The notes: generated by a model not told the origin, from the sequence alone. Counted from the stretch's first letter, positions 40,126 through 50,821 are shown. The stretch: DNA of 64,000 bases from an uncultured bacterium (GCA_964584165.1 CAZOYW010000007.1:32886-96885); one strand, 5' to 3'. Translations and numbers: made by a program.

Positions 40126-40488
40126 CTAGTCGCTCTTGTTTTCCTCATCGCTTTCGCGATTATGCGAATCTCCATCTATCCCCGCCCTTTTCAATAGATT
40201 GAATACTAACTTGCCCCTAAACAGCATATACCACGCCAACACAACATATAGCATTATGTGAATAACATTATTTGCGAATGCCGATATATCGATATTTTGC
40301 GCCGTCTTGGCAATATATGTCGCCATATCTTGCCCGGATTCGTCGATATGAATCCTGGGCATGGCGATATACTTGTACATGGATATCATAAGGGATGGCA
40401 GTATCATGACGGCCTTAATGCCGCAATATACGCCGAATGCCCTTACGATCACCCAGGCTGTTTCAGCCCCGTTCATATTCATCTTCAC
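40126..40488 (-). CDS. small membrane protein (2 TM), AT-rich, island-borne
   Basis: 120 aa. GC content far below the genome background. Confidence 0.4.
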   Translation of the reverse strand: MKMNMNGAETAWVIVRAFGVYCGIKAVMILPSLMISMYKYIAMPRIHIDESGQDMATYIAKTAQNIDISAFANNVIHIMLYVVLAWYMLFRGKLVFNLLKRAGIDGDSHNRESDEENKSD

Positions 40489-41360
40489 GTTATTTTCCTT
40501 TTTGGGTATTCAGACCCGAAGCCTCATCCCCACATTTCACTCAACATCCTCGCCCGTTTCAACTTATTCATGAGCACCAAGCGGGGTGCCAATAACCCTT
40601 GGTGAAAGTTGACCGGGCCGATCCTCTTGGCAGGTCTATGAGCAAGACACTACATTTAAGACTTCAAGATCTCAGATTGAGATCTTAAACGCTGCCCGTC
40701 GTTCCGCACACCATGCACTGCGGTTCCCGCCCATCCCTATCTCGCGGGCCTGTTCCCCGGCATTAGCCGTATCTCACGAGGTGATGGCTTGCCTGTATTT
40801 CAACGATCACTTCCTGATATATCGCGATGTTCATCGGGAACTGTTCGCAAATTGCGCTGAATTAGGTGAACCCGCCAACTCGGCCGCACGTCTCGATCAG
40901 GCCGAATGAGAATGTTGACTGATTGATACGTCCTCTGTCTTCATCTTTTTTGCTCGCTTATAAAGCCCCGAAACCCCGGAGGGGTGATCGACAATAGCCA
41001 AGGGGTTTACCCCCTGCTCTGAAGGCAAAATCAGCATGGAGCCCCGGAAGGGCGACGGAATCCCGCCGCCGAAGCTAGCCTCGCGAAATCGCCTGCGCTC
41101 CATCCCCTGCCTTCCTGTCCCGTGCCAATCCAAGGAAGGCTCTCATTTACAACTGTCCAGTTTTTGGGGGGCAGGTCATCCCGAGCATAGGAAAAATAAA
41201 TGATGGTGCACTTTTCAACATAATTTCTCTCCCTAATGGTTAAGGGATTTACTCTAACGGCTCCCGCTCAAGCCGCCCCCCTTTTCCCAGCACTCATTGA
41301 TCGGCGGCTTACAGCCGATTTTTAACCCTAATTTCGGCTTTAAGCCGTTATAAACCCCCA

Positions 41361-41396
41361 TTTATGCGTATCCCTTTGCTAATCAACCAGATTCCG
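41361..41396. repeat. 36-bp direct repeat R1 (tttatgcgtatcc...caaccagat.ccg), 3' of the RSD gene
   Basis: 30/36 identical to R2 at 42818-42853. Confidence 0.6.
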
Positions 41397-41435
41397 TGGT
41401 CCGACTACATGTTCGATATCTCTAGATATTACTCC

Positions 41436-42482
41436 TCACGCCTTGTCATTATCCTTTTTATTGTCTTCATTTTTAGTTGTTAGTGGAAAACCCAATAAGC
41501 CCGGAAATGTCCCCAATCCATACTTTGATATGTCAATCCTGAATTCGTTAGGATTTGGTATACCAGCTATATTTGGACTATCTAAAATGTACATATTCGG
41601 ATCAAATATATTGATCTTTTCTATCTGAAACGCATTCAACTTATTTATCAGTTCCTCCTTTTCCTTTTTTTCAATTTCTAGCTTGTCGATTTTCACTTTA
41701 AGATCTTCAATTATGCAAGACAATTTATTTACCTCCATCTTATGAACTTCAGCAGTTTCGTCAATCTTCCCCTTTAAATACTGTATATATGAGCCCATCC
41801 CATCCGCGCTTCCAGCGAGGCCATTAAATATTTTCAGGTACGGCATTAGTATTGGATTATCTTTGTCGTATGGATATCGCATTTTATGATCGATTTCGCT
41901 CCACGCCTCTTCAAATATAGTTCGTACTTGAATTTCAACAATAACAGGTTCCTTTGTCGGTTGGGTTTTAATTATGTAATGTACAGATCTATATCCATAC
42001 GGGTGGTTTTCCACCACACATCCCTTGTCTGTATACCTATTTTTTTCGTCGCCTTCACGAATATATGCCTTCGGCTTTTCGATGGTCTCCCATTCATTAA
42101 TAATATATTCATGAATATCATCCCAATCATTTTTAAATAAATGCATTACCCTTACCCCAGCTAAATCAATTACAATGTTCCGATAATTATCTATAGCAAT
42201 TCTAACCTCGGAGTTTTCAAGAGATTTTCGAATAATTTTCTCAATTAAATGATCCGATTCTTTAATGCGTGTTTTTACTGAATGAGCTTTAGGTATATTT
42301 CTTAGCCTTTCGGCAATAGAATTCGCTGCTTGAAATAGATTCATAAATGTTTTATCATAATCTTCGACTATCGCCATCAAATTGGCCCACTTTAATCCTG
42401 ATTTAATATAGTTATCATCGGGTATTCTATACTTCTTGATAAAATCCTTATAATTCATAGCACGACTCCATTGTTTATGCAT
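41436..42482 (-). CDS. RelA/SpoT-domain (RSD) protein, toxSAS/CapRel-like single-chain architecture
   Basis: HSVKTRIKESDHLIEKIIRK, YRSVHYIIKT, VEIQVRTIFEEAWSEIDHKMRYPY (synthetase-fold motifs). C-terminal ~140 aa with coiled coil. Low GC. Confidence 0.7.
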   Translation of the reverse strand: MHKQWSRAMNYKDFIKKYRIPDDNYIKSGLKWANLMAIVEDYDKTFMNLFQAANSIAERLRNIPKAHSVKTRIKESDHLIEKIIRKSLENSEVRIAIDNYRNIVIDLAGVRVMHLFKNDWDDIHEYIINEWETIEKPKAYIREGDEKNRYTDKGCVVENHPYGYRSVHYIIKTQPTKEPVIVEIQVRTIFEEAWSEIDHKMRYPYDKDNPILMPYLKIFNGLAGSADGMGSYIQYLKGKIDETAEVHKMEVNKLSCIIEDLKVKIDKLEIEKKEKEELINKLNAFQIEKINIFDPNMYILDSPNIAGIPNPNEFRIDISKYGLGTFPGLLGFPLTTKNEDNKKDNDKA

Positions 42483-42599
42483 TATTCAATTCCACCTTGG
42501 ATCCCTGGATTCGATAGCTTATTCCTTACTGGTGAAGATAGCTTTGAGAACAAAACAGCTACAACATCACCTCCAATGCATTCTCTTGCTTCAACCTGT

Positions 42600-42790
42600 C
42601 AATGAGCTCTAGGCGGGGGGCCTGGATATTCCCCTTCGGCGGGAAGTGGAGCCCCGCACCATTTTTACGCCTCAATGCGAAACTCTAAGCGAAGTGCCCT
42701 TGGCCAATCTATCGCCGCAGAAGACCGGGGCACAAGCCGAAGGGTCGACCGAGCGGATCCGCTTAGGCCGGCCTTTGAGCAAGACGCTGC
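42600..42790 (-). pseudogene. degraded 3' fragment of a GIY-YIG-family paralog (related to the C-terminus of the 47014-47817 gene)
   Basis: The minus strand translates to VLLKGRPKRIRSVDPS... and ...NIQAPRLELIDR. Compare KYIVLLKGRPKRVGPVDSSPKVNIQAPRLALLDRLI in the intact gene. Frameshifts and a stop are present. Confidence 0.5.
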
Positions 42791-42817
42791 TGTTGTTTTG
42801 ACTCCTTTTTATGCGTA

Positions 42818-42853
42818 TCCGCCTGTCAAGCAACCAGATGCCGAAGCCTAACC
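42818..42853. repeat. 36-bp direct repeat R2, immediately 3' of the PHP-SMC ATPase gene
   Basis: See R1. Confidence 0.6.
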
Positions 42854-42863
42854 GCGCATTTAT

Positions 42864-45845
42864 CTATCCAGCCTCGCCTAAAATATGTTTCCACTGTAAT
42901 CGGTAACGCCGCTCACGTTCTAAAAATGCACGTTCCCCTCCCTCTAGAATCCCGCACACCGTCGTCCGGATATTCGGGTTTTCAAGCGACCCGCTCTGAT
43001 ATTTAATGTGTGGAAGAGTGCCGTCTATACTCGGAGTGGCAGTTGCAATAATCACCTGATCCGCATCCGTATTAACGACCAAGTTGGCATTGTGAGTTAC
43101 GATAATTACCTGTCGGCGCTTACGTACTTGACGAAAGTGCGGTACCAAATCATCGAAAACTGATTTGGGATCAAGATTCTCCTCCGGTTGATCTATTAGA
43201 AGGGGGCGCCGGTCGTTGCGATCAATTGCGAGGTATAGCAAAAGAAGCACTATTCCACGCGTACCGGGAGATACCTGTTCAACAACAACCCCATCATACT
43301 CAATCCCATAACGAATTTCGATGTGCTCAGTGCTGTAAAGCCACGCTCCGATCTGGCGAAACCACTCTACCTTTTTCCCGGGTTCGATCGATGAAGGCAT
43401 TGCAGCCTGAATATCATCCGAATGTTTCGCCACGAAATCATGCATAGCCGTCGCCACTTCATCGGGGTTTCCGACGCGCCACGGCGATAAAAGAGCATCC
43501 TTTGTAATGCTGGCCAGTGTGCCGTGCCCTCGAAATGGTGTGTTCTTCCGCAGATCGAGCAATTCTTCCCCAGCCTTAACCCAATCATTGAAACTAACAT
43601 GTCGCCTGACAACAAAACGCATTTTGGCGAGCGCCCCTTGCTCTCCTTCGAGCTCTTTGTGCAACGGCGTATAAAGACGTGCTAGAGCCCGCTCTTCTTC
43701 TGCAAATGTATTGAAAATCGAGCGGTAGGCTTGTCTGCGCGTGGCTCGTAGAGCGCGTAGTCGTTCGTCCGCCCCTTCCCCATTGTCGATCGCGAGGTCT
43801 AGCTTTTTTAGGCTAGTCTCATTCGCTGCAATCGCTCTATTGAGGATGTCATATTTCCTTTGCTTAATCTCGTCACCCCCAACCTGCTTTTTCGCGGCGG
43901 CACGCGCAGATTTCAGCGCGTCGAGCGGCCAAACGTTCAACGGCACTTTCGTAAGATCTAACGGATTAGTAGGGTCGACGCATTGAAGCTTAGTAATCTC
44001 ATTCGCGACTTTGCTTTTAGCTTGGGTGATGATCGTCTCCACATCGCCGGAATATTTTAGCCGGAAATTCCCCCACTCGATTTCAGTAAGACCTGACTCA
44101 GCGAACCTCTCGCGCATTTCAGCCAAACGTTGCGCGGCATCTTGATCGCGAATGAATATCACCTCGGCGAGCAAGTCATCCAAAGCTTTTTGCCTCCGCC
44201 TCAAGCTTTCAACGCGGTTTTCTGCGTCCGTACATGCCAGATCAAGTTCGAGCAACCGCTGGGCTCGTTTTCCAGCATCCTTCGGCAGCAGGTTCTCAAG
44301 ATCTTTGCGAGATTTCTTGAGTTGCACGCCCAAACTATTGCGATCAATTCGGAGCTTGGGCAATTGATCCTGCAACCGCATCTCCATGGCAATTTTCGCA
44401 GAAGCTGTCGCCACACTTTCGATTTGCTGCTGGCGGCGGCGTCTGATCGGTTTCAGCAACAGATCTGCAAGCGCCTCGAAAGATTCGGTTTGCATACGGT
44501 CTACTGGTTCGGTTTGGTCGAAAATCACCCTCTCAATCTCTTGTCGTAGTTCGACGGCAAGCCCTGCAGATGAGCAAAGTTGTTCCACGAACTGCTGTGA
44601 GAGATAGCGCACCTGCGGCATTTCCTCCGTCCATTCGTCGGGTGAACGGAAGGGAGCCAACTTCCTCTCACCATCGGCCCAGACCTCTTCAACTTGAGCG
44701 TCGCCGATGAGATCGTCAGGTGAGGTGGCTCGCCGCAAAAATGAGGATTCACCCAAGTTGTTGCCGATTGCCTGAGCACCGGCGGCAATCATGTCAAGCA
44801 GCGCGGTCTTGCCAGAACCCCGCTCGCCAATGATGCTGATAAGTCCATGGTTCAATTCGATTTCTTTATTGAGGACCCAAGACATGCCGATGGGCTTTAT
44901 GCTCTCGAGGGTAACCGAATCGGGGATTTCAGTCGGAGATCGTTCGCTGATCGAGACTCGTTCTTCCGGCTCAATGACGGCCTGGCGGAGACTCTCAAAT
45001 GCGAGATCGCCCTTGATCCAGCAATAGCGCGCCAAGTCTGGAGCAGCGACACGGTCCAATTGGTGAGCGTCACATCCATGGAGGCAAGGCTTGATTGCAC
45101 CATATCTGCGTTCAATCGCCTTGCGATCCATCCCGGCCTTGAACCCTAGCCAAAAATCATGGTCGGCTTTGTTGCCTGAGAAGATTATATGCGAGAAACC
45201 CTCGATTTCTTGCCGGATAGCGGAGAAGGCATCATCCTCTTGGAGGCCAGAAGTCCCATCACATTTCGAACTTGCGACTGCCACGAGGCAGTTGTGTCGA
45301 ACCCAGGAATCTTCACGAAAAAGACCTCGCAGCTGGTCAAGGGTTACTTTGAACTGACCAACACCTTCTCGGAATGCACCTTCATCATCCGTTTGCTTTG
45401 GATTATACTTGCGGCCCAATGCGATGAGTTCCGAGCGCGCGCATGAATATTTTCGCTCCTTATACTCGAACGTGAGCTTTCCGAGAATTCGTTCAATCTG
45501 CTGCTCGTGATCCAGATCATCAGGAGAAAACAAGAGATGAATATTGATGCCTTTACTTTGCGCGGTCTTGAGCTCAAGCCTCATTTCAATATTTGGGAAA
45601 ATAAGGTCCACTTGAGGCAGCCGGCCCTCAGCTTTATGCGCACAGATTTGCTTATAACTCTGGATGCACAAATAATCCGTGATGCCTATGGCTCGGATGG
45701 TAGGGGATGCATTTTCGATCTTTTCCAGATAACCCTGCCAGGCACCAGCGAACTGATCACCCAGCACGGTTCCCGGTGCATGAATATGGGGGTCCCAGCG
45801 GTGCCATTCTGAACCGCGCAGGCTCCATTTTGGTGTTGCTTTCAT
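42864..45845 (-). CDS. PHP (polymerase/histidinol-phosphatase) domain fused to SMC/RecF/ABC-type coiled-coil ATPase (993 aa)
   Basis: N-terminal WDPHIHAPGT...AIGITDY (PHP motifs). Walker A IIGERGSGKTALL. Roughly 450 aa of coiled coil. C-terminal LLIDQPEENLD (Walker B / D-loop) and VTHNANL (H-loop). GGAGGA RBS; AT-rich upstream region. Confidence 0.8.
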   Translation of the reverse strand: MKATPKWSLRGSEWHRWDPHIHAPGTVLGDQFAGAWQGYLEKIENASPTIRAIGITDYLCIQSYKQICAHKAEGRLPQVDLIFPNIEMRLELKTAQSKGINIHLLFSPDDLDHEQQIERILGKLTFEYKERKYSCARSELIALGRKYNPKQTDDEGAFREGVGQFKVTLDQLRGLFREDSWVRHNCLVAVASSKCDGTSGLQEDDAFSAIRQEIEGFSHIIFSGNKADHDFWLGFKAGMDRKAIERRYGAIKPCLHGCDAHQLDRVAAPDLARYCWIKGDLAFESLRQAVIEPEERVSISERSPTEIPDSVTLESIKPIGMSWVLNKEIELNHGLISIIGERGSGKTALLDMIAAGAQAIGNNLGESSFLRRATSPDDLIGDAQVEEVWADGERKLAPFRSPDEWTEEMPQVRYLSQQFVEQLCSSAGLAVELRQEIERVIFDQTEPVDRMQTESFEALADLLLKPIRRRRQQQIESVATASAKIAMEMRLQDQLPKLRIDRNSLGVQLKKSRKDLENLLPKDAGKRAQRLLELDLACTDAENRVESLRRRQKALDDLLAEVIFIRDQDAAQRLAEMRERFAESGLTEIEWGNFRLKYSGDVETIITQAKSKVANEITKLQCVDPTNPLDLTKVPLNVWPLDALKSARAAAKKQVGGDEIKQRKYDILNRAIAANETSLKKLDLAIDNGEGADERLRALRATRRQAYRSIFNTFAEEERALARLYTPLHKELEGEQGALAKMRFVVRRHVSFNDWVKAGEELLDLRKNTPFRGHGTLASITKDALLSPWRVGNPDEVATAMHDFVAKHSDDIQAAMPSSIEPGKKVEWFRQIGAWLYSTEHIEIRYGIEYDGVVVEQVSPGTRGIVLLLLYLAIDRNDRRPLLIDQPEENLDPKSVFDDLVPHFRQVRKRRQVIIVTHNANLVVNTDADQVIIATATPSIDGTLPHIKYQSGSLENPNIRTTVCGILEGGERAFLERERRYRLQWKHILGEAG

Positions 45846-45970
45846 CTGATAACTATAGTCCTCCAGTTGCTTGTTCGCGATATATTCAGATCCCGAATAT
45901 TGCCCATTGCCATATAATTTCCCCGATATTTACGCTAGGTATAGCTATAATTTGAGGTTATCATCCAATA

Positions 45971-46417
45971 TTACAATTTCTGAATCCATTTCGCGAAATC
46001 GGATTGTGTCTTCTTCCCTACTGCAACGGATCCCCCGCGGGTAAAATGTTTGCTTCCCGCTATCCAAATGTATCCGCCAAAATCAGATGGAAGAAATAAA
46101 TCCCCATATTGAATCATGGCTACCTTTTCTTTCCCGAAATGGCCGAAGAAATAGCCAAACTCAAACATAACATTCAGATTTGGGATGTTCTTTTTCTGTT
46201 TCTTGATTATCGTTCGGGATTCCGGAGAGAAAACAAGCAAGGCTCCTTGCACTTTCGCGCGGATAGAGTCTAGTTCTTCCAGTAAGTTTCTCCCGGGAGT
46301 AAACGCATCCCACCACGGTAAGAAGGAGACAACATTTGAGGTTAAAGCTTTGACAATCGCTTTGGCTTGGGACCTGGCTGCCGACGACGAACCGATGAAT
46401 AGCTTTATTTCTGGCAT
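45971..46417 (-). CDS. TIR-like domain protein (COG4271/PF10137-type predicted nucleotide-binding TIR-like)
   Basis: 148 aa KLFIGSSS...PWWD.F..G...L..L......GALLVFSPE...NVMFEFGYFFGHFGKEKV...LPSD.GG pattern. Confidence 0.55.
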   Translation of the reverse strand: MPEIKLFIGSSSAARSQAKAIVKALTSNVVSFLPWWDAFTPGRNLLEELDSIRAKVQGALLVFSPESRTIIKKQKKNIPNLNVMFEFGYFFGHFGKEKVAMIQYGDLFLPSDFGGYIWIAGSKHFTRGGSVAVGKKTQSDFAKWIQKL

Positions 46418-46530
46418 ATTTGTTCCTCCCTTCCATTGTTTAATTTCAGATATTATTTGAATACGTAGGCCAACGTCCTAACCTACTTTAACCTATCCAT
46501 AAGCGCCGAACGAATGGTATGAATATTCAT

Positions 46531-46896
46531 CTATTTCAGAACAATGGATAGAATACCCACAAGTAGCCCTATAATGCTTGCAATCGCTCCCCAAGTTTGT
46601 AGATTTACATCAATCTCGGGATATTTATCTCTAATATATTTCGCCAATATAATACCTCCAACGCAGGAACCCCCTACAAGAACAAGCAGGAATGCTGTCT
46701 TGATCAATATTGGGCCTATATTATAGCTTGGCAAAGGTGTTCCTAGCGAAGATTCCCAAATGTAGACTATTGGCCGAACAAGTGCTCCATGCCGCGTTGC
46801 AGGGAAAAACACTGCTAATATTAGCAATAATAGCAATACTGCAATTGTGCACAAACATCCAAACTGATCTGTTTTATTAAAATTGCTTCTAAACAT
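46531..46896 (-). CDS. small membrane protein (3-4 TM)
   Basis: 121 aa. Hydrophobic segments CLCTIAVLLLLLILAVFF, AFLLVLVGGSCVGGIIL, AIASIIGLLVGILSIVL. Confidence 0.45.
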   Translation of the reverse strand: MFRSNFNKTDQFGCLCTIAVLLLLLILAVFFPATRHGALVRPIVYIWESSLGTPLPSYNIGPILIKTAFLLVLVGGSCVGGIILAKYIRDKYPEIDVNLQTWGAIASIIGLLVGILSIVLK

Positions 46897-47013
46897 AAAT
46901 ATGCCCTTTTAGTTTCAGCGAGATATGCTCGCTAATATCGACACCGCCTCTGCCAACGTCCTCGACCGCTTCAACCTGTTCATAAGCGTCAGGCAGGGGA
47001 CCTGACTACCTGA

Positions 47014-47817
47014 CTACAGTGCATTTGCCAATGTCTTCGCCCGGATCAGCCGATCCAGCAAAGCCAGGCGCGGGGCCTGGATATTGACCTTCGGCGAGGA
47101 ATCTACCGGACCAACCCTCTTGGGGCGGCCTTTGAGCAACACGATATATTTCCCTGACTTGCGCCAGGGCTTGATCTTCCGGATGCGGCCATAATGGGTC
47201 ACTTGCTTGATGGGCGAGGTAAGGTAAATCGCAAGGTATTTCAGCCTCGGGATGACCCGCTTGGAAAGGCGGATGGCATACCAACGGTTTTTGCCCAGGA
47301 ACTCCTTCTCGAACCCATCCTTGTGAGCCGGGCAGACAAGCGTGTCATACTCCCCTCTTCGCCGGCGGACATCACAGCTTGAAGATACCTTCTTCGGAAC
47401 GCCTCCGGTGATATCAGCCAACTCGCGCCGCTGGGACTGAACGATCCGGCTCTTGAACACCCGGTAAAGATCGCGCGAGGCGGTGATTTTCCCTGAAACC
47501 CGATTCCCTTTGGGCGAGGCTATCCTCAGAACCAGCGACTCAAGCTCCCGCAAATGCTCGTCGCCCTGAGTCAGATAGATGCTGAACCGGTCCCATTCCT
47601 CGGCATGGCGATCCTTGAGGTGGCCATGCAGCCTTGATCGAAGGTTCCGGGCCAGGCCGACGTAGTAGAGGCTATCCCCGGCATAAAGAGCATATACCCC
47701 GCTCTTCCCCCGGGCGAATTCGGTAATGATATCCGGATATCTTTTTATCGCCGTCCGGGCGATGTTCTCCAAATGCTCGACGACGAGCGGGGCTTTCCCA
47801 ATCCGTTTTCTTCTCAC
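47014..47817 (-). CDS. GIY-YIG nuclease-domain protein with ~170-aa C-terminal domain
   Basis: GVYALYAGDSLYYVGLARNLRSRLHGH (GIY-YIG). Cys/His pair CDVRRRRGEYDTLVCPAH. Degraded copies of its 3' end elsewhere in the island. Confidence 0.6.
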   Translation of the reverse strand: MRRKRIGKAPLVVEHLENIARTAIKRYPDIITEFARGKSGVYALYAGDSLYYVGLARNLRSRLHGHLKDRHAEEWDRFSIYLTQGDEHLRELESLVLRIASPKGNRVSGKITASRDLYRVFKSRIVQSQRRELADITGGVPKKVSSSCDVRRRRGEYDTLVCPAHKDGFEKEFLGKNRWYAIRLSKRVIPRLKYLAIYLTSPIKQVTHYGRIRKIKPWRKSGKYIVLLKGRPKRVGPVDSSPKVNIQAPRLALLDRLIRAKTLANAL

Positions 47818-48078
47818 TTGGCATCTCCTTTCACAATCCCAATCGCTTCCTCCGTCAGTTCAAATAGCTCATAATGACCGAACTTGTACAGGCGGGAAGG
47901 TTGCGCTCGAAGACTTCGACCAGGCGTTGGATCTTGTCCGAGGCGGGCATGGTCTATACCGGAGGGTTGTTTATAATCATACAAATCCCCGTTTTCCAAT
48001 TCCATAAGATATTCCATTACATAATATATTCCAGTTCCCCCCTCCCTCCTATTCATAGCCCCCCCCGCCTGCTCCCCC

Positions 48079-48463
48079 TGGGACACTTCCTGTCCGATCG
48101 GACAAGGTTTGTCCACTTTTGATCGGGAATGGAGGATTTCCGGCCCCCCCAACCCAGCATTGATCTGGGACAACTCGTGTCCGATCGGACAGGGTTTGTC
48201 CACTTTTGAGCAGGAATGGAGGGTTTCTGGCCCCCCCAACCCAGCATTGATCTGGGACAACTCGTGTCCGATCGGACAGGGTTTGTCCACTTTTGAGCAG
48301 GAATGGAGGGTTTCTGGCCCCCCCAACCCAGTATCGAGCTGGGACAACTCGTGTCCGATCGGACAAGGTTTGTCCGTTTTTGATCGGGGAACGAGGGCTT
48401 TTCCTGCTCCAAACCCACCCATTGAGTTGGGACAACCCATGTCCGATCGGACATGGGTTGTCC
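48079..48463. repeat. array of five ~87-bp tandem repeats, each containing the perfect palindrome TGTCCGATCGGACA (last unit a perfect 36-bp palindrome)
   Basis: gggacaactcgtgtccgatcggacagggtttgtcca...cccccccaacccagcattgatct repeated. Lies in the divergent region between the GIY-YIG and PaaX-like genes. Confidence 0.85.
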
Positions 48464-48567
48464 CAATGTCGTCTCCTGATGAGTTCATTGCCCTTGAAAT
48501 CTCTGCAAGAAATATCCGTTCAAAAGAGTCCTTATAGTAGGGCGGGCAATGTCCGCATGAGCGCCGA

Positions 48568-49356
48568 TTGCCCCTCCATCGCGGAGACGCGCGGATGCCA
48601 ACCGTTGCCGAAGATATCCTGATGCTCCTCGCCGAGGGAGCGTTCCGGCTCCTGACTTTCCGCTCCCTGTTCACGCTCGACTGGGGGTTCAGCTCTCCGG
48701 CTTATCGCAAAACGATCACCCGGCTCGAAAAAGACGGCGCGGTCCGGCGGGTGCAACATAGACGCGACGTGTATCTTCATCTCACCGATCGAGGCAGAAA
48801 AATTCTGGAACAACGCCGTCCTCCCCCGAGAAAATCCCCGCCGACCTGGGATCGTCTCTGGCGGCTGGTGATCTTCGATATCCCGGAGAAAAGAAACGAG
48901 GACCGCCTTCTGCTCCGTCGGTATTTGACGGCATCGGGGTTCGCAAAAGTGCAAAAGAGCGTTTGGATCGCTCCCTATGACCGCGAAGAACAAGTGCAGG
49001 AGTTCACCCGAAAAATCGATATCCAACGCTATGTATTGCAGCTGACGTTTAAAAAATTCCGCAACCTCGAGGAGCGGGATTTAGCCGCGTCGTTCTGGGA
49101 TATCCAAGGTCTGCAAGTTCGCTACCAGGAACTGATCCAACGCTACGCGAAAAGAATGGCCGTGCTCCCGGCAGGGACAAGGGGGGCGGCGATTGGGCGC
49201 AGACAGTTCTTGAACGATCTGCTCTGGGATTACCAAACTATCCTGGCCTTAGACCCTCAACTGCCGACCGAGCTGCTTCCGGCGAACTGGAGCGGCGCGG
49301 CCGCGAAGCAGTTCGTGAATCGCTGCCGCACCCTTTTCTCCAGCGGCCCTGTGTAG
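48568..49356 (+). CDS. PaaX-family winged-helix transcriptional regulator
   Basis: WDRLWRLVIFDIPEKRNEDRLLLRRYLTASGFAKVQKSVWIAP matches the PaaX C-domain consensus. N-terminal wHTH. The start may be ATG 48595. Confidence 0.6.
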   Translation: MPLHRGDARMPTVAEDILMLLAEGAFRLLTFRSLFTLDWGFSSPAYRKTITRLEKDGAVRRVQHRRDVYLHLTDRGRKILEQRRPPPRKSPPTWDRLWRLVIFDIPEKRNEDRLLLRRYLTASGFAKVQKSVWIAPYDREEQVQEFTRKIDIQRYVLQLTFKKFRNLEERDLAASFWDIQGLQVRYQELIQRYAKRMAVLPAGTRGAAIGRRQFLNDLLWDYQTILALDPQLPTELLPANWSGAAAKQFVNRCRTLFSSGPV

Positions 49357-49385: not shown

Positions 49386-49507
49386 CGGACAACTTCTGTC
49401 CGATCGGACAGGAGTTGTCCCGATGAAACCAGGTTTTCGGGAGGCAGTTTCCCCCTCTTTCATGCTTGGATTTGGGACAAATCCATCCGATCGGACAGGT
49501 TTGTCCC
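49386..49507. repeat. two further 34-36-bp palindromes of the TGTCCGATCGGACA family, 3' of the PaaX-like gene
   Basis: cggacaacttctgtccgatcggacaggagttgtccc and gggacaaatccatccgatcggacaggtttgtccc. Confidence 0.8.
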
Positions 49508-49532
49508 AAGCCCGAAGCAGGCGGAAAGGGGG

Positions 49533-49780
49533 GATGAGGGATGAGAGATGAGGCATAAGAGATGAGGCATGAGGGATGAGGCATGAGGAACAAGGAGGGG
49601 CGACTGCCGATGCTGGACCGTCCCGGCGCAGGCGGTTTCCCGATTTGGCCCGTGCCGCGACATTCCAGATGGGCGACCGCCGATGCTGGACCGACCCGGC
49701 GCGGGCGGTTTCCCGATCTGGCCCTTGCCGCGACATTCCAGAGGGGCGACTGGCGATGCTGATCCGTGCCGGCGCGGCCT
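49533..49780. repeat. GATGAGG(C/G)AT heptamer run, then 2.5 tandem ~75-bp repeats, upstream of hypE
   Basis: gatgagggatgagagatgaggcataagagatgaggcatgagggatgaggcatgagg; then ggggcgac.gccgatgctggaccg.cccggcgc.ggcggtttcccgat.tggccc.tgccgcgacattccaga.g two times plus a partial copy. Confidence 0.75.
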
Positions 49781-49807
49781 TCCTCGGGGGTGATATACTG
49801 TTGCCCG

Positions 49808-50821
49808 ATGAGCAAGCAGCGGACCATCACTATGGACGACGGGAGCGGGTCGCTCTCCTCCCGGGAGCTCCTCCGGGAGAGCGTCCTCCCCTATCTCCGG
49901 AACCCCGTCCTCAACCGGCTGGAGGACGCGGCCCGCTTCCCGGCGGGGGGCGGGGAGTTCGCCTTCACCACCGACGCCTTCGTGGTCTCGCCAATCGTCT
50001 TCCCGGGCGGGGACATCGGGAAGCTCGCGGTCTGCGGGACGGTCAACGACCTCGCCGTGATGGGCGCCCGCCCCCTCGCCCTCGCCTCCGCCCTCATCCT
50101 CGAGGAGGGCTTCCCACGGGCGCTTCTGGAAAGGATCGTCCGCTCGATGGGAATCTGGGCGAAGCGGGCCGGCGTCCGGATCGTCGCGGGCGACACCAAG
50201 GTGGTGGGAAAGGGGAACGCCGACGGAATCTACATCTCCACCTCCGGCGTCGGCCGGGTGATCATGAAAACGCCCCCGGCGGCGGAGCGGATCCGCCCGG
50301 GCGACCGGGTGATCTCAAGCGGGACGGCCGGCGACCACGGCCTGGCGATCCTGGCCGCCCGGGAGAGGCTCGACATCAGCCCCCAGCTCAAAAGCGACTG
50401 CGCTCCCGTGAACGGACTGATGGAGCGGATGGTCAAATCCGGGGCGGAGATCAAGTTCATGCGCGACCCCACGCGGGGAGGGCTGGCCGCGGTACTCAAC
50501 GAGATCGCCGAGGGGCGGGACTGGGGGATCGGGATCGAGGAACGCTCCGTCCCGGTCCATCCCCGGGTTCGGGCGGCGGCCGAGATACTCGGCCTCGACC
50601 CGCTGGTCCTCGCCGGCGAGGGGAGGATCGTGGCCGTCGCCGCCGATCGGGACGCCCGGAGGCTCGTCGCGGCGATGCGGTCGCATCCCCTGGGGAAACA
50701 GGCGGCCGTCATCGGCGGGATCGTCCGCGGGCATCCCGGCCTGGTCTCCCTGAGGACCCGGGCGGGGGGAGAGCGGGTCATGGACTGGCCCCGGGGCGGC
50801 GACCTGCCGCGGATCTGCTGA
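49808..50821 (+). CDS. hypE: [NiFe]-hydrogenase maturation factor HypE
   Basis: AVCGTVNDLAVMGARP, AGDTKVV, C-terminal ...PRIC. Confidence 0.85.
   Translation: MSKQRTITMDDGSGSLSSRELLRESVLPYLRNPVLNRLEDAARFPAGGGEFAFTTDAFVVSPIVFPGGDIGKLAVCGTVNDLAVMGARPLALASALILEEGFPRALLERIVRSMGIWAKRAGVRIVAGDTKVVGKGNADGIYISTSGVGRVIMKTPPAAERIRPGDRVISSGTAGDHGLAILAARERLDISPQLKSDCAPVNGLMERMVKSGAEIKFMRDPTRGGLAAVLNEIAEGRDWGIGIEERSVPVHPRVRAAAEILGLDPLVLAGEGRIVAVAADRDARRLVAAMRSHPLGKQAAVIGGIVRGHPGLVSLRTRAGGERVMDWPRGGDLPRIC

What the first reader, a model, noticed from the sequence alone, without database searches (positions are those of the whole stretch)
42864..46896. Candidate undescribed defense module: small membrane protein + TIR-like protein + PHP-domain-fused SMC/ABC coiled-coil ATPase
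Three co-oriented, AT-rich genes sit inside a low-GC island in an otherwise 70%-GC genome. A COG4271-type TIR-like domain is a recurrent signalling/NADase module of anti-phage systems. Here it is followed by a 993-aa protein in which a PHP phosphoesterase domain replaces the Mre11/SbcD-type nuclease partner of a Rad50/SbcC-like ATPase. The ATPase has a Walker A, a ~450-aa coiled coil and C-terminal Walker B/D-loop/H-loop motifs. The 3-4-TM protein upstream could be a membrane effector. I do not recognise this gene combination as a named system; it matches neither Lamassu, Gabija, Septu, PARIS nor Thoeris.
Basis: partly seen in the sequence, partly recalled or inferred. Interest (0 to 1): 0.85.

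Follow-up and report, generated by a model that had tools for sequence, protein, structure and literature searches.

The report
Separate defence-type genes, not a trio
The three genes are real and correctly described, but they look like independent single-gene cassettes in a strain-variable, low-GC hotspot; the large protein belongs to an already named, widespread but unstudied family (TrlF) that is a sister of the single-gene anti-phage protein Ppl.

Summary
Observation confirmed. Three co-oriented minus-strand ORFs lie at exactly the stated coordinates, in a 39-51% GC island within a ~69% GC genome. They encode a 3-TM protein of 121 aa, a 148-aa Cap12/PycTIR-type TIR domain, and a 993-aa PHP + SMC/Rad50-like ATPase.

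The interpretation as an undescribed three-gene module is not supported.
- The 993-aa protein is a full-length member of NCBIfam NF045780, "TrlF family AAA-like ATPase" (624.8 bits, cutoff 350).
- The family is large: at least 3,889 sequence clusters, 563 confirmed hits among GTDB species genomes, about 200 plasmids, and a P2-like phage hotspot.
- It has no conserved neighbour. It shares its architecture with Ppl, a validated single-gene anti-phage protein.
- None of 103 TrlF loci has an adjacent TIR-like gene. None of 85 loci of the 148-aa TIR family has TrlF or the membrane protein.
- The only other copies of the trio are 99.7-100% identical DNA from the same strain.

A 99%-identical sister strain carries one unrelated membrane gene where this window has four genes. 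Diverged repeats copied from the 3' end of a GIY-YIG gene divide the island into GIY | TM121 | TIR148+TrlF | RelA/SpoT-like | TM120.

Best reading: a mosaic hotspot of independent cassettes. A TIR148-TrlF pairing remains a minority possibility.

The parts
42864..45845 (-). TrlF-family protein of 993 aa. N-terminal PHP phosphoesterase domain (about residues 10-300), SMC/Rad50-like ABC ATPase head split by a coiled-coil insertion of about 400 aa (N-lobe 313-424, helices 429-732 plus 742-836, C-lobe 842-982).
   Evidence: NCBIfam NF045780 at 4.3e-187, 624.8 bits against cutoff 350, profile positions 1-944 of 944. PADLOC Ppl at 3e-27, partial only. AF2 models plus Foldseek. Invariant motifs.
45971..46417 (-). 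Stand-alone Cap12/PycTIR-type TIR-like domain protein of 148 aa, with no sensor domain.
   Evidence: PF10137 at 69.5 bits. PADLOC CBASS 'Effector TIR' at 9.6e-20. Cap12 structure 7un8 at 2.1e-13. The family is about 148 aa long and 60-83% identical across phyla, with invariant E86 in the NLNV.FEFG motif.
46531..46896 (-). Small predicted membrane protein of 121 aa with 3 hydrophobic segments, from a rare family of unknown function. It lies in its own repeat-bounded segment.
   Evidence: No Pfam, PADLOC, NCBIfam or PHROG hit. The only word-indexed hit is its own 100% copy. Ten remote homologues in 1.84 billion representatives, best at 55% and 45% identity. Hydropathy and GC3 of 0.32.
46464..46529 (-). 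Junction repeat R2: a diverged copy of the coding sequence at the 3' end of the GIY-YIG gene. It lies between the membrane gene and the TIR gene.
   Evidence: nhmmer profile built from other copies, E 2.4e-4. tblastn remnant MNIHTIRSALMDRLK*VRTLA. Repeat family D6.
46942..47007 (-). Junction repeat R1, in tandem with the true 3' end of the GIY-YIG gene and upstream of the membrane gene.
   Evidence: nhmmer E 4e-10. Repeat families D4 and D6.
42561..42845 (-). Junction repeat R3 with a longer pseudogene remnant (equivalent to GIY-YIG protein residues 213-263). It lies downstream of TrlF and upstream of the RelA/SpoT-like gene.
   Evidence: tblastn finds two segments at E 2.5e-6, 52% and 64% identity. 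nhmmer E 9e-23, but this copy was used to build the profile. Repeat families D4, D10 and D11.
41436..42482 (-). Neighbouring cassette: RelA/SpoT-homologue protein of 348 aa with a small-alarmone-synthetase-like N-terminal domain and a C-terminal extension. It is not part of the reported trio.
   Evidence: PF04607 at 1.8e-20. phrog_2211 at 3.2e-61. RelQ, RelP and YjbM structures at 6e-9 to 2e-5. GC 34%.
47014..47817 (-). GIY-YIG nuclease-family gene of 267 aa at the upstream edge of the variable segment. Its 3' end is the source of the junction repeats.
   Evidence: Weak Pfam GIY-YIG hit at 0.0021. About 30% identity to plasmid genes annotated as GIY-YIG nuclease family. It is 92% identical to the sister strain at the DNA level (96.6% at the protein level), against 99.2-99.8% for the flanks.
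40530..40607 (-). Junction repeat R4 at the downstream edge of the variable segment. It is also present in the sister strain.
   Evidence: tblastn E 0.019. nhmmer E 5.6e-18, but this copy was used to build the profile. L184 11629-11896 matches window 40757-40497 at 80.6%.

Best explanation
The interval is part of a strain-variable, horizontally acquired hotspot. It lies between a GIY-YIG nuclease gene and a conserved small membrane gene and holds several independent cassettes, not one operonic system.

(1) The 993-aa protein is a member of the widespread, stand-alone TrlF family. In effect it is an SbcCD/Rad50-Mre11 machine in one chain, with a PHP metal-dependent phosphoesterase in place of the Mre11/SbcD nuclease. 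The most likely mechanism (inferred) has three steps. ATP-driven engagement of two ABC heads clamps a nucleic acid. The coiled coils gate access to it. The PHP domain then cuts it. This would restrict incoming phage or plasmid DNA, as proposed for its sister Ppl.

(2) The 148-aa protein is a separate, highly conserved, solitary Cap12/PycTIR-type TIR domain that retains the catalytic glutamate motif. It is probably an NAD+-consuming enzyme. Its trigger is unknown, because it has no sensor domain and no nucleotide cyclase nearby.

(3) The 121-aa membrane protein is a third, unrelated cassette of unknown function.

Shown here: family memberships, folds, motifs, lack of co-occurrence, strain variability and the repeat-defined segmentation. 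Inferred: a defence role, a nuclease substrate and NADase activity.
For: TrlF membership is full length and above the curated cutoff.

TrlF is a large family.
- At least 3,889 clusters.
- 563 confirmed genome hits across many phyla.
- 200 plasmid records with at least 80% coverage, annotated as TrlF family.
- 11 IMG/VR contigs.

TrlF has no conserved neighbour.
- The largest neighbour cluster is integrases, in 11 of 80 loci.
- Among 138 nearest-neighbour ORFs the top Pfam families are Phage_integrase (7), AAA_21 (4) and AAA_15 (3), then RES, putAbiC and PIN (2 each). BrxL, HipA, ResIII, EcoEI_R_C, N6_Mtase and TraI occur once each.

The contexts of TrlF relatives are defence-like or mobile.
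- The closest full-length relative (73% identity) sits between Mrr, an MmeI-type RM system and T5orf172-ResIII on one side, and an integrase, Gabija GajA/GajB and RmuC on the other.
- A plasmid copy sits among type I RM, toxin-antitoxin, NACHT and RES genes.
- A TrlF-family gene (464.8 bits, above the 350 cutoff) occupies the gpA-gpQ gap of a P2-like Yersinia phage.
- Ppl is described as a single-gene ATPase + PHP anti-phage system (PMC11482910).

Co-occurrence is absent.
- An HMM of the TIR148 family run on six-frame translations of 103 TrlF loci gave one hit. It is a different 300-aa protein, 4.5 kb away on the opposite strand.
- The nearest TrlF relatives (62-73% identity) have no TIR gene.
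- None of 85 TIR148 loci has TrlF or TM121, and 54 of them have at least 1 kb of downstream sequence. They share no conserved neighbour.
- The other trio contigs are 99.7-100% identical to the window.

The sister strain L184 has flanks 99.2-99.8% identical. It carries one unrelated 261-aa membrane gene in place of window 40758-47010.

Junction repeats flank TM121 on both sides. A profile built from three copies recovers only two more significant sites in the 64-kb window, both at gene junctions.

GC3 differs between segments: TM121 0.32, TIR148 0.49, TrlF 0.53, RelA/SpoT-like gene 0.33.
Against: TIR148 and TrlF lie in the same repeat-bounded segment, have similar GC3 and are only 125 nt apart with no terminator-like site between them. 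They may therefore have arrived together and could be co-transcribed.

The contexts of the very closest TIR148 relatives (81-83% identity, on contigs under 1.7 kb) could not be inspected.

No TrlF-family member has a published phenotype that I could find. A defence role rests on context and on the resemblance to Ppl, and the Ppl model scores only 97 bits against a cutoff of 1000.

Many TrlF loci sit on plasmids next to transfer or partition genes. That is also compatible with a role in plasmid biology.
Confidence: 0.65

Rival explanations
1. Two-gene unit. TIR148 and TrlF form a recently assembled pair. The SMC-like PHP ATPase senses foreign DNA and the TIR domain acts as an NAD+-depleting effector, which is Lamassu-like logic. 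The membrane protein is unrelated.
For: The two genes share one repeat-bounded segment with no junction repeat between them. They have similar GC3, 0.49 and 0.53, unlike their neighbours at 0.32 and 0.33. The gap is 125 nt with no terminator-like site. About 5% of close TrlF homologues carry an extra C-terminal AIG2/GGACT domain, so the core can acquire accessory modules.
Against: No adjacency in 103 TrlF loci or in 85 TIR148 loci. Both families are otherwise solitary with variable neighbours. TrlF already carries its own nuclease-type effector domain.
Confidence: 0.12
2. A three-gene system made of a membrane effector, a TIR signalling or NADase protein and a PHP-SMC ATPase.
For: The genes are co-oriented, closely spaced and in one low-GC island. 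All three are absent from a sister strain.
Against: The membrane gene is bounded on both sides by junction repeats and has a distinct GC3. It is a rare family, with 10 remote homologues in 1.84 billion representatives, whereas the other two families are large. The only other copies of the trio are the same strain. The sister strain also lacks the neighbouring RelA/SpoT-like gene, so shared absence does not single out the trio.
Confidence: 0.04
3. TrlF is not an immune protein. It is a DNA-repair or maintenance factor of mobile elements, for example processing DNA ends or hairpins during conjugation or plasmid replication. It travels with them for that reason.
For: There are about 200 full-length plasmid copies, and about 800 of the 1,097 matching plasmid records are conjugative. 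Copies lie directly after a T4SS coupling-protein gene or after parAB. The protein resembles Rad50, SbcC and RecN. One copy lies next to lexA and imuB/dnaE2-type genes.
Against: There is no conserved synteny with any transfer or repair gene. TrlF occurs in a P2-like phage hotspot and in clear defence islands. Its sister Ppl is a validated anti-phage protein.
Confidence: 0.15

Closest known systems
TrlF family AAA-like ATPase (NCBIfam NF045780)
   Same: End-to-end match above the curated cutoff. Same length class, PHP N-terminus and split ABC head. Solitary gene on chromosomes, plasmids and prophages.
   Different: Nothing structural; it is a member. The family has no published function that I could find. 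This copy happens to follow a TIR-like gene.
Ppl (single-gene anti-phage system: PHP + ATPase; NCBIfam NF042955, PADLOC Ppl)
   Same: Same overall architecture and single-gene logic. There is significant local similarity, best in the C-terminal ABC lobe: residues 834-980 match profile positions 743-881. Ppl is proposed to degrade DNA on infection (PMC11482910).
   Different: It scores 97 bits against an equivalog cutoff of 1000, so it is a sister family and not Ppl.
SbcCD / Mre11-Rad50
   Same: ABC head split by an antiparallel coiled coil, with the nuclease held at the heads. Structural matches to Rad50 heads.
   Different: The nuclease is a PHP domain fused in cis, not a calcineurin-like Mre11/SbcD subunit. 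The coiled coil is shorter. There is no CxxC zinc hook in residues 430-840 (sequence). It is not a conserved housekeeping locus.
Cap12 (CBASS) and PycTIR (Pycsar) TIR effectors
   Same: The 148-aa protein matches their TIR domain (PF10137) and keeps the NV.FE.G glutamate motif.
   Different: It has no SAVED, STING or cyclic-nucleotide-binding sensor domain. No CD-NTase or pyrimidine cyclase gene is present in the island. It scores 49 bits against a cutoff of 450 for the Cap12 equivalog models.
Lamassu (LmuA effector + LmuB SMC + LmuC)
   Same: The concept of an SMC-like ATPase coupled to an effector. LmuB appears among the structural matches (9ux7).
   Different: The PADLOC LmuB hit is marginal, at 4.8e-4 over about 50 residues. 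There is no LmuC-like gene. The effector domain is fused to the ATPase.

Membership tests
TrlF family AAA-like ATPase (NF045780) | Full-length HMM score above the curated cutoff of 350 bits | tested here: met
   624.8 bits, E 4.3e-187, residues 10-982 against profile positions 1-944 of 944.
TrlF family AAA-like ATPase (NF045780) | N-terminal PHP-type phosphoesterase fold with conserved metal-ligand His, Asp and Glu residues | tested here: met
   AF2 pLDDT 91.8. The top 18 PDB matches are all PHP proteins. H20/H22, E87, H103, D259 and H261 are conserved. The Pfam PHP model itself was not reached.
TrlF family AAA-like ATPase (NF045780) | Split ABC/SMC-type ATPase head with Walker A, Q-loop, signature, Walker B, D-loop and H-loop motifs | tested here: met
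   Motifs are invariant in the alignments. Pfam AAA_21 passes its cutoff; SMC_N (39.4 bits against 40) and AAA_23 (22.6 against 27) fall just below theirs. Structural matches to SMC, Rad50 and JetC heads.
Ppl anti-phage protein (NF042955) | HMM score above the equivalog cutoff of 1000 bits | tested here: not met
   97.4 bits, in two partial stretches. PADLOC Ppl gives 93 bits, partial.
Ppl anti-phage protein (NF042955) | A single gene combining an ATPase and a PHP domain | tested here: met
   Architecture shown. Description of Ppl in PMC11482910.
Ppl anti-phage protein (NF042955) | Protects cells from phage | not testable with these tools
   Needs plaque assays.
CBASS Cap12 / Pycsar PycTIR effectors | PF10137 TIR domain | tested here: met
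   69.5 bits against a cutoff of 24.7. 7un8 at 2.1e-13.
CBASS Cap12 / Pycsar PycTIR effectors | A fused sensor domain for a cyclic nucleotide, and a cyclase gene in the operon | tested here: not met
   The protein is 148 aa, all of it TIR domain. It scores 49 bits against a cutoff of 450 for Cap12. No SMODS, CD-NTase or cyclase hit among the island ORFs.
Thoeris | ThsB TIR protein together with ThsA (SIR2 or TM domain plus SLOG or Macro domain) | tested here: not met
   No ThsA or ThsB model is among the PADLOC hits for any island ORF at E<=0.01.
Lamassu | LmuB SMC protein together with LmuA effector and LmuC | tested here: not met
   LmuB hit only at 4.8e-4 over residues 872-924. No LmuA or LmuC hit.
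SbcCD / Mre11-Rad50 | Zinc-hook CxxC at the coiled-coil apex and a calcineurin-like nuclease partner | tested here: not met
   No CxxC in residues 430-840 (sequence). No Mre11 or SbcD-type ORF in the island.
Integron cassette array | intI integrase and attC sites between the cassettes | tested here: not met
   No integrase among the nine island ORFs scanned against Pfam. The inter-cassette repeats are diverged copies of the coding 3' end of the GIY-YIG gene. No attC covariance model was available, so attC was not tested directly.

The most novel reading that the evidence does not exclude
TIR148 and TrlF are a newly formed two-gene immune unit. An SMC/Rad50-like PHP ATPase that senses foreign DNA has recruited a sensor-less Cap12-type TIR NADase as a second effector. 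The whole island is a cassette array built by repeated capture next to a GIY-YIG nuclease gene, whose 3' end serves as the recombination anchor. That would be an integron-like hotspot without an integrase.
Probability: 0.08. Interest if true: 0.65.

Novelty: new member of a known kind. Interest (0 to 1): 0.3.

Why it matters
The claimed new three-gene defence system does not hold up, so it should not be catalogued as one. Two things remain useful.

First, TrlF is a very widespread PHP + SMC-like single-chain protein found in thousands of clusters, on hundreds of plasmids and in a P2-like phage hotspot. It appears to have no published function. Together with Ppl it forms a class of "SbcCD-in-one-chain" candidates that would be easy to test.

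Second, the locus is a clean natural example of a strain-variable hotspot. Its cargo segments are separated by decayed copies of a flanking gene's 3' end, and that pattern can be used to delimit functional units in defence islands.

Tried and rejected
- Literature searches for the origin and function of "TrlF" found nothing relevant. The only trl genes were tropolone biosynthesis genes in Streptomyces, which are unrelated.
- The Krishnan et al. ABC ATPase classification paper could not be fetched.
- I considered the inter-gene repeats as integron attC sites. I rejected this because they translate into the C-terminal peptide of the GIY-YIG protein (PKVNIQAPRL.L.DRL..TLA) and the nine island ORFs scanned against Pfam include no integrase.
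- Rfam gave only sub-threshold hits in the island.
- No tRNA gene in the window marks an integration site.
- The promoter and terminator scan was uninformative, with fewer sites than in shuffled sequence.
- The exact-sequence look-up of the 755-aa database version of the protein failed.
- The context of a 45%-identical homologue of the membrane protein was too short to use, at 827 nt.
- Small ORFs upstream of TIR148 homologues were checked as possible equivalents of the membrane protein. They are unrelated and not hydrophobic.
- A sequence profile of the full-length protein found no PHP structure in the PDB, so the PHP call rests on the predicted fold.

Full report

Yes. The region holds three minus-strand ORFs with exactly the reported boundaries: 46531-46896 (121 aa), 45971-46417 (148 aa) and 42864-45845 (993 aa). 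They lie in a low-GC island. One-kb windows drop to 42-55% GC between about 39.5 and 49.5 kb, against 64-75% in the rest of the window. The three genes have 39.1%, 44.5% and 51.3% GC. The gaps between them are 113 and 125 nt.

**2. Are the domain calls right?**

The 148-aa protein.
- It matches Pfam PF10137 (CAP12/Pycsar effector TIR domain) at 69.5 bits against a cutoff of 24.7.
- It matches PADLOC CBASS TIR-effector models at 1e-19.
- A profile of its family matches the solved Cap12 TIR-SAVED (7un8, 2.1e-13) and PycTIR (8jsj) structures. The NV.FEFG glutamate motif aligns.

The 993-aa protein, ATPase part.
- It gives Pfam AAA_21 above its cutoff, and SMC_N and AAA_23 just below theirs.
- All ABC motifs are invariant or nearly invariant in 46 homologues: Walker A 340-347, Q417, signature-like S859-PGTRG, Walker B D885/E888, the D-loop and H918.

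The 993-aa protein, PHP part.
- Pfam did not detect PHP.
- An AlphaFold2 model of residues 1-310 has pLDDT 91.8. Its top 18 PDB matches are all PHP-fold proteins: RNase AM, a TrpH-like phosphoesterase, and the PHP domain of Pol III alpha. All have probability 0.99-1.00, with modest TM scores near 0.4.
- The conserved His, Asp and Glu residues (H20/H22, E87, H103, D259, H261) fit a PHP metal site. This last point is inference.

The 993-aa protein, full length.
- The full-length model has pLDDT 83.2 and pTM 0.66, with long helices over residues 429-732.
- It matches MukB, Smc, JetC, Rad50, RecN and LmuB heads with coiled coils, and separately RNase AM.
- There is no CxxC hook in the coiled-coil region (sequence).

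The 121-aa protein has three hydrophobic segments and no hit in any profile library.

**3. What is the 993-aa protein?**

It is not unrecognised. It matches NCBIfam NF045780, "TrlF family AAA-like ATPase", end to end. The score is 624.8 bits against a cutoff of 350, covering profile positions 1-944 of 944.

The family is large.
- At least 3,889 90%-identity clusters.
- 563 confirmed hits in one-genome-per-species GTDB contigs, across Acidobacteriota, Proteobacteria, Actinomycetota, Planctomycetota, Bacteroidota and others.
- About 200 plasmid records with full-length copies annotated under that name.
- 11 IMG/VR contigs.

A family member (464.8 bits) fills the gpA-gpQ gap of a P2-like Yersinia phage. 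From my own knowledge, that gap is a position where P2-like phages carry anti-phage cargo.

The validated system with the same architecture is Ppl, described as a single gene with an ATPase and a PHP domain (PMC11482910). The window protein hits the Ppl models significantly but only partially, at 97 bits against a cutoff of 1000. It is therefore a sister of Ppl, not Ppl itself. I found no paper on TrlF.

**4. Do the three genes belong together?**

From the TrlF side.
- In 80 genome loci with 6-kb flanks, no ORF resembles the TIR protein, the membrane protein or the other island genes.
- The only recurrent neighbours are integrases (11 of 80 loci), HsdM (4) and HipA (3).
- A Pfam scan of 138 nearest-neighbour ORFs gives no family in more than 7. 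The list is mobile-element and defence flavoured: integrase, OLD-type ATPases, RES, putAbiC, PIN, BrxL, HipA, ResIII, type I RM and TraI.
- An HMM of the TIR148 family, run on six-frame translations of 103 TrlF loci, gives one hit. It is a different 300-aa PF10137 protein, 4.5 kb away on the other strand of a small plasmid.
- The closest relatives (62-73% identity) have no TIR gene. The 73% relative sits in a textbook defence island with Mrr, MmeI-type RM, T5orf172-ResIII, an integrase, Gabija and RmuC.

From the TIR side.
- The 148-aa protein belongs to a tightly conserved family. Almost all members are 148 aa long and 60-83% identical across phyla.
- In 85 loci none has TrlF or the membrane protein.
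- No neighbour is shared by more than 6 loci.
- Small ORFs upstream of these TIR genes are unrelated and not hydrophobic.

From the membrane-protein side.
- In the word-indexed database of 5.8 billion sequences it has only its own identical copy.
- In 1.84 billion representatives it has ten remote homologues.
- Contigs carrying it show the same gene order, but they are 99.7-100% identical to the window. They are the same strain sampled again, not independent occurrences.

**5. What is the island?**

A sister genome (L184) is 99.2-99.8% identical on both flanks. It has a single unrelated 261-aa multi-TM gene where the window has 40758-47010, which holds the membrane gene, the TIR gene, TrlF and a RelA/SpoT-like gene. 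The GIY-YIG gene at the upstream edge is present in both strains but is only 92% identical. This is therefore a strain-variable hotspot.

Within it I found five same-orientation copies of an approximately 70-nt sequence.
- The sequence is the coding 3' end of the GIY-YIG gene (peptide PKVNIQAPRL.L.DRL..TLA).
- One copy is the real gene end (47014-47100).
- The diverged copies lie at 46942-47007, 46464-46529, 42561-42645 (with a longer remnant extending to 42845) and 40530-40607.
- A profile built from three copies recovers the other two, at E 4e-10 and 2.4e-4. Nothing else in the 64 kb is significant.

The repeats cut the island into GIY | TM121 | TIR148+TrlF | RelA/SpoT-like | TM120. GC3 follows the same segmentation: 0.32, then 0.49 and 0.53, then 0.33.

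The membrane gene is thus a separate segment. The TIR gene and TrlF share one segment, which is the only evidence in favour of a pairing.

No integrase was found among the nine island ORFs scanned against Pfam, and no tRNA gene lies anywhere in the window. The repeats are about 64% alike. They therefore look like old recombination scars, not fresh target duplications. That reading is inference.

**6. Mechanism**

For TrlF, my best guess is a single-chain analogue of SbcCD or Mre11-Rad50.
- ATP-dependent head dimerisation clamps a nucleic acid.
- The cis-fused PHP domain cleaves it.
- The nearest structural relatives of the PHP domain are an exoribonuclease (RNase AM) and the Pol III PHP domain (from my own knowledge, a proofreading exonuclease in some bacteria). 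The substrate could therefore be DNA or RNA.
- This fits the hypothesis proposed for Ppl.

For the TIR protein, NAD+ hydrolysis is likely. The TIR domains of Cap12 and PycTIR do this when oligomerised (my knowledge). How a sensor-less domain would be switched on is unknown.

None of these activities is shown here.

**7. Verdict**

The best reading is a mosaic of independent cassettes (confidence about 0.65). A TIR148-TrlF pair stands at about 0.12, the full trio at about 0.04, and a non-immune plasmid-biology role for TrlF at about 0.15.

Novelty: a new member of known kinds. Interest is modest. What remains worthwhile is that TrlF is a very common, apparently unstudied sister of Ppl, and that the hotspot has an unusual repeat-delimited structure.

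Noticed in passing
window 40530-47100 (repeat copies at 47014-47100, 46942-47007, 46464-46529, 42561-42845 and 40530-40607): Five same-orientation, diverged copies of the coding 3' end of the GIY-YIG nuclease gene separate the cargo genes. A sister strain (L184) with flanks 99.2-99.8% identical carries a single different membrane gene here. This looks like a hotspot built by serial recombination anchored on the flanking gene's 3' end, and no integrase gene was found in the island.
   Followed up: partly
window 41436-42482 (-): A 348-aa RelA/SpoT-homologue with a small-alarmone-synthetase-like domain (residues 71-207) and a C-terminal extension of about 140 aa. GC is 34% and phrog_2211 hits at 3e-61. 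The architecture recalls fused toxSAS defence proteins such as CapRel, but no CapRel structure was hit.
   Followed up: partly
window 48078-48463; further copies at 49387-49425 and 49486-49502: An 87-nt tandem repeat of 4.4 copies, each with a palindromic core of about 34 nt (GGACAAC..GTCCGATCGGAC..GTTGTCC). It lies between the PaaX-like regulator gene and the GIY-YIG gene. The sister strain appears to have about three fewer units, and the drop from 99.8% to 92% identity begins here. The 286-aa ORF at 47814-48674 that spans it is probably spurious.
   Followed up: partly
window 49531-49777: Short 7- and 14-nt repeats (49531-49588) and a 73-nt tandem repeat of 2.5 copies (49595-49777) lie at the start of the hypE-like gene (49766-50821).
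   Followed up: no
window 40972-41017 (-): A sub-threshold match to the Rfam Acido-Lenti-1 RNA motif: 31.6 bits against a gathering score of 37, E 5e-4, over the full model length. It lies in the non-coding stretch between the RelA/SpoT-like gene and TM120.
   Followed up: no
P0013, P0025, P0029, P0035, P0040, P0072 (homologues of the 993-aa protein): About 5% of the 120 closest TrlF homologues are roughly 1,150 aa long and carry AIG2/GGACT (gamma-glutamylcyclotransferase-like) Pfam domains. In P0013, the only one scanned individually, the domain is C-terminal. The core ATPase can therefore acquire an accessory enzymatic module.
   Followed up: partly
L171:1751-4369 (Yersinia phage vB_YenM_42.18) and L172:3001-5706 (Microcystis phage Mwe-JY31): Phage-encoded TrlF-family genes, annotated as 'chromosome partition protein' and 'hypothetical protein'. 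The Yersinia copy sits between gpA and gpQ of a P2-like phage.
   Followed up: partly
window 42864-45845 compared with database entry P0001: One public annotation of this same gene (NCBI/ENA sources) is only 755 aa, 100% identical over 76% of the query. That length is consistent with a start at Met239, which would remove most of the PHP domain. The Logan call and the TrlF profile support the 993-aa start.
   Followed up: partly
window 40126-40488 (-) and L184:10842-11627: Small and medium membrane proteins with no family recur in this hotspot. They are TM120 (conserved in both strains, 44% GC), TM121, and the sister strain's 261-aa multi-TM protein.
   Followed up: no
window 45971-46417 (-) and loci L083-L167: The solitary 148-aa TIR family is unusually conserved, at 60-83% identity across distant phyla with almost invariant length, yet it has no fixed neighbour. 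In one genome it lies beside an HTH/ImmA pair, a Bil-like ubiquitin-type system and a type III CBASS.
   Followed up: partly
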